A stretch of DNA of 64,000 nt from a phage. The DNA lies in sequence record PZ386972.1; one strand, given 5' to 3'. Made by a program: the position numbers and the translations under genes. Position 1 is the first letter of the stretch, and every line of letters begins with the position of its first letter. Under the pieces are notes generated by a model. That model was not told the DNA's origin, made no database searches, and saw nothing but the letters and a program-made list of their open reading frames with translations. Shown in pieces: positions 21,240-30,906 of the stretch.

Positions 21240-22029
21240 TAAATTAGGGAACAGCGAGCCGATTACGCTGAGTGCAGAATCCCAACCGGAGCGCATTGAA
21301 TAGAGTCGGTGGGTTAGTTGTAAAACTAGTACACAGGGGGCGGCAATCCCGGTTAGTGGCTAGAACGTGTAAAATGAGGCGTCTGAAACCTCTCCCCTAA
21401 ACTCTTCTCTGATTTATAAATAGTGGGGTGTGGAAATCACTTATGTAGTAACACTGCCGTCCTAGTATAATTGGTATTATCAAGCCGTAACTGGTGGAAG
21501 ATGTAGGTTCGAATCCTACGGTCGGTAAGAACTGGATAACTGATGCTTTTAACGTAAAAGCTTCCTAGGTTAGTTGCGCACTGCCTAAACCACGCGGTAG
21601 TTGGTTCCAGACTAACCAACCAGTCTGCTGAATAGTTTTATTACGATTTAACTATGTCCAGGCTAAAGAAGAACTTTAGAAGGTATTCTAGGATAGTGAA
21701 GTTCTTTCTCCATATCGGAGTAGTTTTTCAAGCTATCCACAAAGTGGGAAATGCTGACATGAGAGATGTCACTAATGGTGCACAATAGCACAGGTAATTC
21801 GCGATAACTCCTGTTGAGTAGCAGCAAAAGGTGGGAAGTCATGACCCCAAGCCTAACCGAGTCCTCAATATACCGCAGGACATAACCACTAAGTCACCCT
21901 GACTTAAACTGGAAAATAATAGACGTTACTGTATTTTGTCTTGAAATACTTAATGAGTGAGACTTATGACTCTCCCGGTATCGTCTGTATTTTTAAGAGT
22001 TTTTACGAGAGTTCTTAAAAATACTTAAA
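21240..22029 (+). ncRNA. about 790 nt structured non-coding transcript region (candidate stable RNAs)
   Basis: No ORF of 60 aa or more on plus strand; multiple hairpins such as AAGAACTT/AAGTTCTT and TTTTTAAGAGT/GAGTTCTTAAAAA; lies between promoter and first tRNA. Confidence 0.3.
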
Positions 22030-23817: not shown

Positions 23818-23892
23818 GGTTCTCAAGCTCATATGGTATGAGCACCCGGCTCATAACCGGAAGGTACGTAGGTTCGAATCCTCGGGGAGCCA
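23818..23892 (+). tRNA. tRNA with CAT anticodon (Met or Ile2)
   Basis: Acceptor GGTTCTC/GGGAGCC with wobbles, D-arm GCTC...GAGC, anticodon loop CTCATAA, TTCGAAT T-loop (imperfect T stem), CCA encoded. Confidence 0.6.
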
Positions 23893-25290: not shown

Positions 25291-25353
25291 AGTTATCTAA
25301 TTTGGAAACATATCTAAAAGTGTTTAAACTAGTATTTGAATACTTTTAAATAT

Positions 25354-25438
25354 GGGCGTTTATTCCGTAGATGGTAGCGGAGGGGATTGTAAATCCCTGG
25401 TCATTGCGACTCGAGTGGTTCGACTCCATTAACGCCCA
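25354..25438 (+). tRNA. tRNA-Tyr (anticodon GTA), class II
   Basis: Acceptor GGGCGTT/AACGCCC, anticodon loop TTGTAAA, long variable arm, T-arm GTGG-TTCGACT-CCAT, CCA encoded. Confidence 0.8.
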
Positions 25439-25459
25439 CCAAATTTAAAGGTAAAATAT

Positions 25460-29104: not shown

Positions 29105-29268
29105 TAGCTCGACCTAGGACTGGCTGCCAAAAAGCACGATCCCTACGATTCGGGAGAAGTTCTAGATTAGTCCACTAGATTCAGCGGCAACTGAATAGTG
29201 TATCGGGTTTGCGAGATGACGCGGTTCCTTCCGCTCGAAGCGAAGGTGCTGTAGTTACGCCGAGCTAA
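29105..29268 (+). ncRNA. about 165-nt structured RNA closed by TAGCTCG/CGAGCTA helix
   Basis: Long-range complementary 7-mers plus internal hairpins; no ORF. Confidence 0.3.
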
Positions 29269-29292
29269 TAGCCTTAGTAAACTAAAGAATTT

Positions 29293-29368
29293 GGGGAATG
29301 GGTCTGCATGGAGTGGACACCTCGCTTGCACCGAGGACATCAGAACGGTTCGATTCCGTTATTCTCCA
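29293..29368 (+). tRNA. tRNA-Ala (anticodon TGC)
   Basis: Acceptor GGGGAAT/ATTCTCC with G3-U70 wobble, anticodon stem CCTCG/CGAGG, loop CTTGCAC, T-arm AACGG-TTCGATT-CCGTT, CCA encoded. Confidence 0.75.
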
Positions 29369-29376
29369 CCAAATAC

Positions 29377-29450
29377 GCGTGATTGATGGAATTGGCATAC
29401 ATACCGTCCTTAGAAGTCGGGTTTTGAGGGTTCGAATCCCTTGTCACGCA
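29377..29450 (+). tRNA. tRNA with TAG anticodon (Leu by anticodon) but class I architecture
   Basis: Acceptor GCGTGAT/GTCACGC, loop CTTAGAA, 5-nt variable loop, T-arm GAGGG-TTCGAAT-CCCTT, discriminator A, CCA encoded; weak D stem. Confidence 0.5.
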
Positions 29451-29453
29451 CCA

Positions 29454-29565
29454 AATTTGATGGTCAGAGTAAATTAAACCTACTATCTCGGTTGAGCTGT
29501 TTTAATGGGTTCGAATCCCAGCGAGGCGTAACTGCCTGGCGTGATAGAGGCATCATCTTATTATT
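29454..29565 (+). ncRNA. about 110-nt segment containing an orphan T-arm-like hairpin (tRNA-like fragment or small RNA)
   Basis: TGGG-TTCGAAT-CCCA hairpin with no matching acceptor stem or CCA; AGGCGTAACTGCCT hairpin. Confidence 0.25.
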
Positions 29566-29653
29566 GGAAGAGCAAATCGAATTGGCGACGAAAACCGCTT
29601 GGAAAGTGGCTGACTGGTAAAACGGCTTGAGAGTTCAAATCTCTCCTCTTCCG
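29566..29653 (+). tRNA. tRNA-Ser (anticodon GGA), class II
   Basis: Acceptor GGAAGAG/CTCTTCC, loop TTGGAAA, long variable arm, T-arm GAGAG-TTCAAAT-CTCTC, CCA encoded. Confidence 0.7.
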
Positions 29654-29668
29654 CCAAACAATTTATAT

Positions 29669-29760
29669 GGTAGGTCAATCCAATGGCTGGCGCTGGACTC
29701 CGACTTGAAATCGGTTGATCGTAGTGATACGGTGTAAGGGTTCGATCCCCTTACCTACCT
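29669..29760 (+). tRNA. tRNA-Ser (anticodon TGA), class II
   Basis: Acceptor GGTAGGT/ACCTACC, loop CTTGAAA, long variable arm, T-arm AAGGG-TTCGATC-CCCTT, CCA encoded. Confidence 0.7.
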
Positions 29761-29764
29761 CCAA

Positions 29765-29910
29765 GTCTTGAAGTATGCCGGAATCGGTAGACGGGGCTGC
29801 CTAAAAGGTTTATAGGGAACATCCACTCCCTACAACATACCTCATAAAGCGGCTGAGATAAATGGTCTATCTCGTGAAGGTTCAAGTCCTTCTGCTTCTT
29901 GATACATCTA
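29765..29910 (+). ncRNA. about 145-nt structured segment with D-arm-like and T-arm-like hairpins but no complete cloverleaf
   Basis: GAGATA-AATGGTC-TATCTC and GAAGG-TTCAAGT-CCTTC hairpins; no CCA. Confidence 0.25.
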
Positions 29911-30014
29911 TGGCTCAAAGTGTAACGGTGCTATTTGATGCTCTTAGTAAGACTTTCCCGACATGCGTTCGGGAGTAAGCTGCTAAGGCTAGAATAGAAG
30001 AGTTTCTGAGAGCC

Positions 30015-30134
30015 GCCACAATTGAAAATTCGTACTCGTCTTGAGCTGCGTGCAATAGGAGATAACTTGATTAGTATTCTAGAACATGCTAATTGAGGAT
30101 GGTTTCGCTAACCCTGCGAGTTTTCAATTGTGGC
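30015..30134 (+). ncRNA. structured element closed by a perfect 14-bp helix whose 3' strand overlaps the 5' end of tRNA-His
   Basis: GCCACAATTGAAAA at about 30015-30028 is the exact reverse complement of TTTTCAATTGTGGC at about 30121-30134. Confidence 0.4.
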
Positions 30135-30203
30135 TATATCATAATTGGTTAATGATCCTGATTGTGAATCAGGCCTATGTGGATTCGAATTCCACTAGCC
30201 ACC
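30130..30203 (+). tRNA. tRNA-His (anticodon GTG)
   Basis: Acceptor GTGGCTA/TAGCCAC, anticodon stem CCTGA/TCAGG, loop TTGTGAA, T-arm GTGGA-TTCGAAT-TCCAC, discriminator C, CCA encoded. Confidence 0.8.
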
Positions 30204-30231
30204 CCAAATTAACTTAAATAGGAAATAAAAT

Positions 30232-30429
30232 ATGGCTGATTTCTGCAAACAATGCTCCATTGATATGTGGGGCAGAGATACTGGTGATCTTTCTGGTTTG
30301 ATTACAGAAGCTGAGGTCAAAGAAGGTTATGGTGCAGTTGTGATTTGCGAAGGATGCGGAGTTATTCGAGTAGATCATGAAGGCAAACGTTTAGAAGAAC
30401 AGGAAAACTTAGGAGAAACAAATGAGTAA
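30232..30429 (+). CDS. small Cys-containing protein
   Basis: ORF track. Confidence 0.4.
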   Translation: MADFCKQCSIDMWGRDTGDLSGLITEAEVKEGYGAVVICEGCGVIRVDHEGKRLEEQENLGETNE

Positions 30430-30658
30430 TGCTTTAATTAGTGAAATTATGTTAACACGTCTTGCAGAACTGCAAACTCTTCGAGATGAATCTCAGAATA
30501 ACTTAGCCTACCATAAACAGATGGTAGATACTCTTACTACTCGTATTGATACTTACGAGCGTGATATTGCAGCATTACAAGCTCTTTTCTCTGTATCAGC
30601 ACCAGATACGTTAGAACAGCCTGCTGTATCTCAGCCAGTAGAAACAGCATCTAGCTAA
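30422..30658 (+). CDS. hypothetical coiled-coil protein
   Basis: ORF track; overlaps upstream stop. Confidence 0.4.
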   Translation: MSNALISEIMLTRLAELQTLRDESQNNLAYHKQMVDTLTTRIDTYERDIAALQALFSVSAPDTLEQPAVSQPVETASS

Positions 30659-30667
30659 TAGCATTCT

Positions 30668-30740
30668 TGGGATGTAGATCAATTGGCAGATCGTCGGCCT
30701 CTGACTCCGAAGGTTCCACGTTCGATCCGTGGCATCCCAG
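30668..30740 (+). tRNA. tRNA-Gln (anticodon CTG)
   Basis: Acceptor TGGGATG/CATCCCA, D-arm GATC...GATC, loop CTCTGAC, T-arm CCACG-TTCGATC-CGTGG, discriminator G, CCA encoded. Confidence 0.7.
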
Positions 30741-30822: not shown

Positions 30823-30833
30823 CCAAGTAATAA

Positions 30834-30906
30834 GCGGTTAAGCACACGGGTTGTGTCGCAGGCCTTCCAAGCCTCGCTGAGTAGGGTTCGATTCCCTCTA
30901 GCCGCT
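30834..30906 (+). tRNA. tRNA-Gly (anticodon TCC)
   Basis: Acceptor GCGGTTA/TAGCCGC, loop CTTCCAA, TTCGATT T-loop, CCA encoded. Confidence 0.6.

What the first reader, a model, noticed from the sequence alone, without database searches (positions are those of the whole stretch)
30015..30134. Perfect 14-bp helix that would sequester the 5' end of tRNA-His
GCCACAATTGAAAA (about 30015-30028) is exactly complementary to TTTTCAATTGTGGC (about 30121-30134), and the last five nucleotides of the 3' strand are the first five of the tRNA-His acceptor stem. The precursor can therefore fold either into this long helix or into the tRNA, suggesting regulated processing or a riboswitch-like alternative structure.
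Basis: seen in the sequence. Interest (0 to 1): 0.55.

Follow-up and report, generated by a model that had tools for sequence, protein, structure and literature searches.

The report
RNase III-type processing helix before tRNA-His
The helix is real and conserved in T5-like phages; it closes the precursor of the known T5 "stable RNA III" and most likely is a double-strand cutting site that must be cleaved before the phage tRNA-His can fold, not a riboswitch.

Summary
The window is a T5-like phage tRNA array. The 14-bp complement (30015-30028 / 30121-30134) is exact. It extends to 20 bp (30015-30034 / 30115-30134) with two U.G wobbles and includes tRNA-His G1-C5.

GenBank T5 records annotate this stretch as RNAI (…GCCA), a 4-nt gap, RNAIII (106 nt, "stable RNA with unknown functions"), then a 78-nt tRNA-His starting at U-1. 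The helix pairs the RNAI 3' end, the gap and the RNAIII 5' end with the RNAIII 3' end and the tRNA-His 5' end. The annotated RNAIII ends lie opposite each other in the helix with 2-nt 3' overhangs, which is the RNase III signature.

A 17-21-bp helix (up to ~25 positions in one phage) reaching the tRNA-His 5' end recurs in 13 aligned sequences whose interiors are unrelated (about 0-127 nt between the arms). 95% of cells pair and 14 of 20 pairs show compensatory changes. Wobbles are G.U on the + strand 30:2. Random positions and other tRNAs almost never score this high.

Best explanation (about 0.6): an RNase III processing stem that excises RNAIII and frees tRNA-His. The riboswitch reading is not supported. 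The RNAs are known; this role and the conservation appear undescribed.

The parts
30015..30034 (+). 5' arm of the 20-bp helix: RNAI 3' end G-CCA (30015-30018), 4-nt spacer CAAU (30019-30022), first 12 nt of RNAIII (30023-30034)
30115..30134 (+). 3' arm of the helix: last 14 nt of RNAIII (30115-30128), U-1 (30129), tRNA-His G1-C5 (30130-30134)
30023..30128 (+). RNAIII (106 nt), 100% identical to the T5 'rnaIII' misc_RNA ('stable RNA with unknown functions'). Its ends pair (30023 with 30126), leaving a 2-nt 3' overhang.
30035..30114 (+). Interior of RNAIII (three predicted hairpins). This is the replaceable part: four other discrete interiors occur in T5-like phages and further ones in other genera.
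30022..30023 (+). Inferred cleavage on the 5' arm (annotated RNAIII 5' end), inside the palindrome CAAU|UG
   Evidence: annotation mapped; cleavage itself inferred
30128..30129 (+). Inferred cleavage on the 3' arm (annotated RNAIII 3' end / annotated tRNA-His 5' end at U-1), staggered 2 nt from the other cut
   Evidence: annotation mapped; cleavage itself inferred
29912..30018 (+). RNAI homologue (107 nt; GGCUC...GAGCC-G-CCA, tRNA-like acceptor end). Its 5-bp terminal stem abuts the helix on the same strand (30014|30015).
30129..30206 (+). tRNA-His(GUG) with encoded CCA; U at -1 instead of the usual bacterial G-1; 78 nt as annotated in T5
29767..29911 (+). RNA1 homologue (T5 'tRNA-like stable RNA'), first member of the co-transcribed RNA1-RNAI-RNAIII-tRNA-His block

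Best explanation
The helix is the processing stem of a polycistronic stable-RNA precursor (RNA1-RNAI-RNAIII-tRNA-His). It forms as soon as its 3' strand is transcribed and locks up G1-C5 of tRNA-His and the GCCA end of RNAI. Host RNase III, a double-strand-specific endonuclease, then makes two staggered cuts inside the palindromic centre CAAU|UG, at 30022|30023 and 30128|30129.

These cuts release RNAIII with a 2-nt 3' overhang. They leave RNAI with a 4-nt tail (CAAU) for exonuclease trimming back to CCA. They leave tRNA-His with a 5' end at U-1. The remaining 6-bp intermolecular duplex falls apart and tRNA-His folds into its cloverleaf.

Shown here: the helix, its dominance over the cloverleaf, its conservation and covariation, and the fit of the annotated RNA ends to RNase III geometry and sequence rules. 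Inferred: that RNase III is the enzyme, that the annotated ends are the primary cuts, and that cleavage is required for tRNA-His maturation.
For: (1) Annotated ends. In T5 (AY543070, AY692264) and DT57C the order is RNAI, a 4-nt gap, RNAIII (106 nt), then a 78-nt tRNA-His. Gap+RNAIII and tRNA-His are 100% identical to window 30019-30128 and 30129-30206. In the helix 30023 pairs with 30126, so both products carry 2-nt 3' overhangs, the pattern described for RNase III.

(2) Length. A 17-21-bp helix (about 25 positions with one mismatch in Pantoea AAS21) recurs with unrelated interiors. In the T5 group it always persists 11-12 bp beyond the 5'-arm cut. This matches the published minimum of 11 bp between cut and helix tip, and the statement that one proximal+distal box set suffices. 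The shortest variant is an 11-position stem (one C/U mismatch) capped by a GCAA tetraloop.

(3) Pairing is maintained across both cut sites by compensatory changes. At tRNA position 5, G-C becomes A-U in Erwinia KEY and Pantoea AAS21. Between the cuts, U-A becomes G-C in Pectobacterium DU_PP_V and UViG L056. Overall 95.4% of cells pair against 36-48% for slid registers, 14 of 20 pairs change on both sides, and 0 of 500 shuffles reach this. RNAalifold on four divergent homologues recovers the helix on its own.

(4) The positions where G-C pairs are reported to block RNase III binding or catalysis (proximal-box positions 2 and 4) are A-U or U-A in all 13 sequences. Neighbouring positions vary and include G-C.

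(5) Non-Watson-Crick cells are G.U on the + strand 30 times and A.C only twice, so the helix is an RNA of the tRNA-sense transcript.

(6) The RNAI terminal stem is contiguous with the helix. Coaxial stacking would give about 12 and 13 bp on either side of the inferred dyad, filling the 22-bp RNase III footprint.

(7) No + strand promoter-like site lies in 29200-30700, and T5 annotates none between its promoter P13b and tRNA-His, so the RNAs are co-transcribed.

(8) Precedent: a role for RNase III in phage T4 tRNA synthesis is cited in PMC4810235.
Against: No cleavage data were available, and I could not confirm that the GenBank RNAIII and tRNA-His ends were measured experimentally. The two base pairs between the inferred cuts are A-U and U-A in T5, whereas in vivo E. 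coli sites usually have at least one G-C there. Proximal-box positions 1 and 3 in T5 (A-U, G-C) differ from the in vitro optimum (G-C, A-U). The proximal half of the helix is only 7 bp unless RNAI stacks on it. In a Sugarland-like Klebsiella phage and in UViG L073/L101 the helix is shifted 2-4 bp relative to G1, so the cut cannot fall at -2|-1 everywhere. Phage T4 shows no comparable helix before its tRNA-Gln.
Confidence: 0.6

Rival explanations
1. The helix is simply the terminal stem of RNAIII, needed for that RNA's stability or function. The ends are made by RNase P (5' ends of RNAIII and tRNA-His) plus exonucleases, and the extension into tRNA-His and RNAI is incidental.
For: RNAI has a tRNA-like acceptor end with GCCA. 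RNAIII types A and 147 carry a T-loop-like hairpin (UUCGCUA) next to the 3' strand of the stem. RNase P certainly acts in this array. The 12-bp stem from the RNAIII 5' end equals the acceptor plus T-stem length.
Against: Pairing beyond the RNAIII ends (tRNA positions 1-5, -1 and the spacer) is conserved and covaries, which RNase P does not need and which would hinder it. RNAIII has no 3' RCCA. The RNAIII interior is not conserved and shrinks to a tetraloop in one type, so RNAIII itself is dispensable. With U-1 opposite C73, RNase P would be expected to cut at +1, not at -2|-1 (established knowledge on G-1:C73).
Confidence: 0.15
2. One reading: the helix is a regulatory alternative structure that delays or tunes tRNA-His maturation in response to a signal, such as a ligand, temperature or a phage protein.
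For: The helix and the tRNA fold are mutually exclusive and the helix wins by about 9 kcal/mol. Only tRNA-His and tRNA-Tyr carry such leader helices in these phages, which hints at gene-specific control.
Against: There is no conserved sensor. The interior is swapped between unrelated cassettes or reduced to a loop. No Rfam match was found. A 20-bp helix about 9 kcal/mol more stable than the alternative cannot switch spontaneously; it needs cutting or unwinding.
Confidence: 0.12
3. It is a DNA-level feature: terminal inverted repeats of a small mobile cassette, or a recombination or homing site that explains the cassette swapping.
For: Five discrete interior types sit between the same inverted ends in otherwise similar genomes. 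HNH homing endonuclease genes are scattered through T5 tRNA regions. Pantoea phage AAS21 shows a duplication or insertion at AATTGTG.
Against: Mismatches are G.U on the + strand 30:2 over A.C, which has no meaning for DNA. The arms beyond the first 9-12 bp differ between types but stay complementary. The 14-mer has no other copy in the window. The outer part of the 'repeat' is functional tRNA and RNAI sequence.
Confidence: 0.03

Closest known systems
T5 stable RNAs RNAI, RNAIII and RNA1 (GenBank AY543070, AY692264; DT57C NC_027356)
   Same: The element enclosed by the helix is 100% identical to T5 rnaIII. The 5' arm starts with the last four nucleotides of rnaI, and the order and spacing are the same.
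   Different: The records say only 'stable RNA with unknown functions'. They do not annotate the helix, its extension into tRNA-His, its conservation with replaceable interiors, or a processing role. I found no paper on these in the searchable library.
RNase III processing stems of bacterial rRNA operons (flanks of 16S and 23S pair and are cut)
   Same: Sequences on both sides of a stable RNA in a polycistronic precursor pair into a duplex of about two helical turns. Staggered cutting releases the enclosed RNA and separates its neighbours (for the general description; for geometry).
   Different: Here the stem also contains mature nucleotides of both neighbours: the CCA end of a tRNA-like RNA and the 5' acceptor strand of a tRNA. 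It therefore blocks the tRNA fold. The enclosed RNA looks dispensable, and one cut would coincide with the tRNA's -1 position.
Phage T7 early RNase III sites (R1.1 and the minimal substrate uR1.1)
   Same: An 11-12-bp stem lies between cut and tip, A/U pairs sit at proximal-box positions 2 and 4, and the overhang is 2 nt. One T5-like variant even ends in a GCAA tetraloop, as uR1.1 does.
   Different: T7 sites separate mRNAs and usually have an internal loop with a single cut. This one is a fully paired helix between stable RNAs.
RNase III involvement in phage T4 tRNA cluster processing (McClain 1979, cited in PMC4810235) and T4 species 1/2 RNAs (rnaC, rnaD)
   Same: A phage tRNA cluster holds small stable RNAs of unknown function and depends on host RNase III for some tRNA production.
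   Different: No comparable long helix overlapping the tRNA 5' end is seen before T4 tRNA-Gln. The T4 papers could not be read here.
Routes to the extra 5' nucleotide of tRNA-His (RNase P retaining encoded G-1; Thg1 adding G-1)
   Same: The subject is the same tRNA end and the same identity element.
   Different: The T5-like gene has U, not G, at -1. If the annotated 5' end is real, that end would be set by a double-strand cut rather than by RNase P or Thg1. This is unproven.

Membership tests
E. coli RNase III double-cleavage substrate | [quoted passage not shown] | tested here: met
   20 bp in the window, with 12 bp from the inferred 5'-arm cut to the tip. The aligned sequences keep pairing to offset +13/+14 from G1.
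E. coli RNase III double-cleavage substrate | Two cuts staggered so as to leave 2-nt 3' overhangs | tested here: inconclusive
   The annotated T5 RNAIII ends map to 30023 and 30128, and 30023 pairs with 30126, giving a 2-nt overhang. The experimental basis of the annotation could not be checked.
E. coli RNase III double-cleavage substrate | No G-C or C-G pair at proximal-box position 2 (binding antideterminant) or position 4 (catalytic antideterminant) | tested here: met
   The corresponding columns are A-U or U-A in 13 of 13 sequences on the distal side. On the proximal side they are A-U (U-1 and U2).
E. coli RNase III double-cleavage substrate | In vivo preference for at least one G-C among the two pairs between the cuts | tested here: not met
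   These pairs are A-U and U-A in all T5 types. A G-C is present only in DU_PP_V and UViG L056. It is a preference, not a requirement.
E. coli RNase III double-cleavage substrate | Cleavage depends on RNase III (rnc) | not testable with these tools
   Needs in vitro cleavage or infection of an rnc mutant.
T5 rnaIII gene | Sequence identity and synteny with the annotated T5 feature | tested here: met
   Gap+RNAIII is an exact match to window 30019-30128, flanked by the RNAI homologue and tRNA-His.
Riboswitch or ligand-sensing leader | Conserved structured aptamer core, preferably matching a known family | tested here: not met
   No Rfam hit at E<=1 in 29760-30129. The interior is replaced by unrelated sequences or a tetraloop.
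Intrinsic terminator or attenuator | G+C-rich hairpin followed directly by a U run | tested here: not met
   The long helix is A+U-rich and is followed by UAUAUCAU (tRNA sequence). The only terminator-like match is a 5-pair stem inside RNAIII.
RNase P substrate (tRNA-like) for the RNAIII 5' end | 7+5-bp acceptor/T-stem stack with T-loop, single-stranded leader and 3' RCCA | tested here: not met
   The RNAIII 3' tail is AU, not RCCA, and the leader is base-paired. RNAI, by contrast, does have GGCUC/GAGCC plus GCCA.
MITE or inverted-repeat mobile element | Multiple copies, terminal inverted repeats at DNA level, target-site duplication | tested here: not met
   Single copy in the window. Strand-asymmetric wobbles, 30 G.U against 2 A.C. 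No flanking duplication.

The most novel reading that the evidence does not exclude
[quoted passage not shown] U rather than G would be encoded at -1 because a G-C pair next to the scissile bond inhibits RNase III catalysis. That would be a third biosynthetic route to the tRNA-His -1 residue. More broadly, 17-22-bp 'RNase III spacers' that pair an upstream RNA's CCA end with the next tRNA's 5' end would be a recurrent phage device, also seen before tRNA-Tyr and in UViG L073/L101.
Probability: 0.18. Interest if true: 0.75.

Novelty: new variant of a known kind. Interest (0 to 1): 0.5.

Why it matters
It gives a concrete, testable job to a feature of T5, a model phage. The "stable RNA III" annotated in T5 records as of unknown function would be mainly the excised filling of a processing stem. 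The conserved part is the stem itself, which ties together the maturation of RNAI, RNAIII and tRNA-His.

It would add a case where a tRNA cannot fold until a double-strand nuclease has acted. That makes phage tRNA-His (and perhaps tRNA-Tyr) supply dependent on host RNase III.

It also raises the question of how the many phage tRNA-His genes without an encoded G-1 become good HisRS substrates. Such genes were 26 of 67 in a broad sample.

Tried and rejected
- **Rfam.** A search at E<=1 found nothing in 29760-30129.
- **Literature.** Searches for T5 stable RNAs, RNAIII, and RNase III in T5 found no relevant paper in the searchable library. The original work on T5 stable RNAs that I recall (early-1980s papers from the Ksenzenko/Bayev group) is not held, so the basis of the annotated ends stays unverified.
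- **RNase III scoring matrix.** The position matrix of Altuvia et al. is in a supplement that is not held, so the cut site could not be scored quantitatively.
- **T4 analogue.** T4 was examined for a helix before tRNA-Gln, the tRNA I recalled as RNase III-dependent. None comparable was found.
- **U-1 goes with the helix.** This idea was weakened by a broader sample of 67 phage tRNA-His contexts. 18 have U-1, but only one of those has a helix, and two helix-bearing genes have G-1.
- **Constant distance from G1 to the helix tip.** This holds in the T5 group, the Proteus phage, UViG L056 and the Morganella phage. It fails in the Sugarland-like Klebsiella phage and in L073/L101.
- **'CAAU|' motif.** A shared motif at all three junctions was dropped because the window has CUAU before RNAI.
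- **RNase E.** It was considered and rejected. The sites lie in duplex RNA and lack the U at +2 of the consensus as I recall it.
- **Small ORFs.** Those overlapping the region (24 and 43 aa) were dismissed, because the sequence is interrupted or replaced in relatives and overlaps the tRNA.

Full report
**Context**

The window is a T5-like phage of the Demerecviridae, 99.9% identical over this stretch to Salmonella phage SCF and about 94% to T5. It carries a + strand array of 22 or more tRNA genes between 21.4 and 32.4 kb. tRNA-His(GUG) lies at 30130-30206 with an encoded CCA. The nucleotide before G1 is T, not the G-1 usual in bacterial tRNA-His genes.

**The observation**

The two 14-mers are exact reverse complements at the stated coordinates, and 30130-30134 are G1-C5 of tRNA-His. 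The pairing continues to 20 bp (30015-30034 with 30115-30134) with two U.G wobbles. It forms the core of the predicted fold of 30005-30215 (z = -4.7).

A simple helix score reaching the tRNA 5' end is 19 here. At 400 random window positions it is 7.3 +/- 1.6 with a maximum of 12. In the 295-nt RNAI-RNAIII-tRNA-His precursor, the ensemble containing the helix is about 9 kcal/mol more stable than the one with the tRNA-His acceptor stem enforced. The 78-nt RNA starting at U-1 folds into a cloverleaf on its own.

**What the region is**

Three GenBank records annotate the region upstream of tRNA-His: T5 AY543070, T5 st0 AY692264 and DT57C NC_027356. In order they list RNA1 (144 nt, "tRNA-like stable RNA"), RNAI (107 nt), a 4-nt gap, RNAIII (106 nt, "stable RNA with unknown functions"), and then a tRNA-His of 78 nt that starts one nucleotide before G1.

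I extracted these features and mapped them onto the window:
- Gap+RNAIII is identical to 30019-30128.
- tRNA-His is identical to 30129-30206.
- RNAI corresponds to 29912-30018 and ends ...GAGCC-G-CCA.

None of RNA1, RNAI or RNAIII matches an Rfam family. No + strand promoter-like site lies in 29200-30700, and T5 annotates none between its promoter P13b and tRNA-His, so the block is co-transcribed.

**Geometry of the annotated ends**

The RNAIII 5' end (30023) pairs with 30126 and its 3' end is 30128. RNAIII therefore has a 2-nt 3' overhang. So does the other product: RNAI+CAAU ends at 30022, and U-1 (30129) pairs with 30020. The two breaks are symmetric inside the palindrome CAAU|UG.

Staggered double cuts with 2-nt 3' overhangs in a duplex of about 22 bp are the hallmark of RNase III. 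The RNAI terminal stem (29912-29916 / 30010-30014) is contiguous with the helix on the same strand. If it stacks coaxially, about 12 and 13 bp flank the inferred dyad, which fills the 22-bp footprint. That step is inference.

**Comparative evidence**

Upstream of nearly identical tRNA-His genes, T5-like phages carry five discrete elements of 42, 77, 120, 135 and 147 nt. The 120-nt type is the one in this window. It occurs in 283 phage records, the 77-nt type in 65, the 135-nt type in 55 and the 147-nt type in 15. All begin GCCACAATT and end AATTGTGGC. Their distal stems differ in sequence yet remain complementary, and their interiors are unrelated.

The same design, with different sequences, occurs in:
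- Erwinia phage KEY
- Pantoea phage AAS21
- Pectobacterium phage DU_PP_V (Mccorquodalevirinae)
- Proteus phage M4H10_20 (Novosibvirus)
- a Sugarland-like Klebsiella phage
- a Morganella T4-like phage
- uncultivated contigs

I aligned 13 sequences on G1, 20 pairs each. 95.4% of cells pair, against 36-48% for slid registers. 14 pairs show changes on both sides, and no shuffle out of 500 reaches any of the measures. One caveat applies: I chose the register per lineage, so the background scores are the fairer control. RNAalifold on four divergent homologues recovers only this helix plus a small hairpin.

Compensatory changes occur inside the tRNA (position 5, G-C to A-U in KEY and AAS21) and between the inferred cuts (U-A to G-C in DU_PP_V and L056). 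Pairing across the cut sites is thus selected, which a single-strand-specific enzyme would not require. Non-canonical cells are G.U on the + strand 30 times and A.C twice. The helix is therefore an RNA feature of the tRNA-sense transcript, not a DNA palindrome.

**Fit to RNase III rules**

Pertzev and Nicholson report four relevant rules:
- 11 bp between cut and hairpin tip is the minimum for good reactivity.
- One proximal+distal box set suffices to specify a site.
- G-C pairs at proximal-box position 2 block binding.
- G-C pairs at position 4, next to the scissile bond, block catalysis.

In the T5 group the helix always persists 11-12 bp beyond the 5'-arm cut. The 42-nt variant is an 11-position stem (one C/U mismatch) with a GCAA tetraloop. 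The columns corresponding to positions 2 and 4 are A-U or U-A in all 13 sequences, while positions 1 and 3 vary and include G-C.

Two points do not fit. The two pairs between the cuts are A-U and U-A in T5, whereas in vivo sites usually include a G-C. Positions 1 and 3 are not the in vitro optimum.

**Specificity within the arrays**

Among about 450 distinct tRNA contexts in the first set of fetched loci, scores of 13 or more were found for 32 of 34 tRNA-His and 8 of 9 tRNA-Tyr. Only 2 of the roughly 390 others reached that score. In a broader sample of diverse viral contigs, only 10 of 823 non-His tRNAs and 3 of 67 tRNA-His contexts had such a helix. The feature is therefore characteristic of T5-like and a few other lineages, not of phage tRNA-His in general.

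**Mechanism proposed**

The helix forms co-transcriptionally, before the tRNA 3' half exists. RNase III cuts at 30022|30023 and 30128|30129. RNAIII is released, and since its interior is dispensable it looks like a by-product. RNAI keeps a CAAU tail that exonucleases trim back to CCA. tRNA-His is freed with U-1. The residual 6-bp duplex (GCCACAAU with UGUGGC) dissociates in favour of the intramolecular acceptor stems. I put this at about 0.6.

The main rival, at about 0.15, is that RNase P and exonucleases make the ends and the stem serves RNAIII itself. It does not explain the conserved, covarying pairing beyond the RNAIII ends, nor the dispensable interior. A DNA-level element (about 0.03) is contradicted by the wobble asymmetry.

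**The U-1 question**

All 13 aligned helix-bearing genes (the 12 lineages plus L037) have U at -1, paired with A. The T5 records start tRNA-His at that U. It is tempting to propose that RNase III, not RNase P, defines the tRNA-His 5' end and preserves a -1 nucleotide. U would then be used because a G-C pair next to the scissile bond is a catalytic antideterminant. HisRS chiefly needs the 5' phosphate positioned by the -1 residue.

The wider survey weakens this. 18 of 67 other phage tRNA-His genes have U-1, almost always without a helix. Two helix-bearing genes (L073, L101) have G-1. In the Klebsiella lineage and in L073/L101 the helix is shifted, so the cut would leave a 3-5-nt leader. I keep this as the novel reading at about 0.18.

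**Novelty**

RNAI, RNAIII and tRNA-His are annotated, so the enclosed element is known. I found no description of the following in the searchable literature:
- the helix itself,
- its overlap with two neighbouring mature RNAs,
- its deep conservation with interchangeable interiors,
- its fit to RNase III geometry.

RNase III processing stems are a well-known kind, seen in rRNA operons, T7 early RNAs and the T4 tRNA cluster. This is a new variant of that kind, in which the stem must be cut for a tRNA to fold.

Noticed in passing
window 25309-25354 (before tRNA-Tyr 25354-25441): A second leader hairpin of about 20 positions, A+U-rich (CATATCTAAAAGTGTTTAAA / TTTGAATACTTTTAAATATG, one mismatch, two G.U). 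Its last G is G1 of tRNA-Tyr. It lies just downstream of a sigma-70-like promoter (T5 'P14a'). 8 of 9 distinct tRNA-Tyr contexts in T5-like loci, and the Klebsiella phage L072, have it, in sequence variants that stay complementary. It is a possible second RNase III site.
   Followed up: partly
window 29767-29911: Homologue of T5 RNA1 ('tRNA-like stable RNA'). ARAGORN and Rfam do not call it. Window versus T5 shows compensatory changes in the acceptor-like stem (GAAGTA/TGCTTC vs GGAATA/TGTTCC) and in an internal hairpin (TAGGGA..TCCCTA vs CTAGGA..TCCTAG).
   Followed up: partly
window 29669-29759; also 21456-21527, 23818-23892, 30833-30906: tRNA-like genes found by Rfam models but not by ARAGORN in this window. 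29669-29759 corresponds to T5 tRNA-Ser(UGA) and scores only on the tRNA-Sec model (37.6 bits, below the gathering score). By synteny with T5, 30833-30906 lies where T5 annotates tRNA-Gly just after the two tRNA-Gln genes.
   Followed up: no
window 30035-30114 and loci L011, L015, L018, L035, L036: The RNAIII interior exists as five discrete, mutually unrelated cassettes (42, 77, 120, 135 and 147 nt elements). Each is at least 95% conserved within its type (283, 65, 55 and 15 records for four of them), with no intermediates seen. This suggests cassette exchange by recombination between the conserved RNAI and tRNA-His flanks.
   Followed up: partly
L035, L039, L041, L072, L111 (just before the 3' arm): RNAIII of the 135-nt type, Erwinia KEY, Pectobacterium DU_PP_V and Sugarland-like Klebsiella phages share GGAGGTCTGATCAGCCCTC(A/G)ATGG, with the 8-nt palindrome CTGATCAG in a predicted hairpin loop. 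Types 120 and 147 instead share a T-loop-like TTCGCTA hairpin at the same place.
   Followed up: no
L073 and L101 (uncultivated viral contigs): A 20-22-bp helix pairs the ACCA end of the upstream tRNA plus spacer with the leader, G-1 and G1-G3 of a canonical G-1:C73 tRNA-His. This is the same 'CCA end / helix / tRNA-His 5' end' architecture in an unrelated sequence family.
   Followed up: partly
67 distinct tRNA-His contexts in loci L073 and above: 26 of 67 phage tRNA-His genes have a non-G nucleotide at -1 (T 18, C 5, A 3) according to ARAGORN start calls. How these tRNAs obtain histidine identity is unclear.
   Followed up: no
L040 (Pantoea phage AAS21), about 190 nt upstream of tRNA-His: The Erwinia-KEY-type 3' arm (CAATGGTGTTCAATTGTG) is retained upstream. 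It is followed by a roughly 170-nt insertion that ends in AAATTGTGG and forms its own helix of about 25 positions with tRNA-His G1-U8. The sequence AATTGTG occurs at both ends of the insertion.
   Followed up: no
window 30232-30429 and T5 locus L001: The window lacks the HNH homing endonuclease genes that flank this block in T5 (hegC between tRNA-Leu and tRNA-Ser, hegD after ORF059). The small ORF after tRNA-His (65 aa, CxxC...CxxC) is conserved.
   Followed up: no
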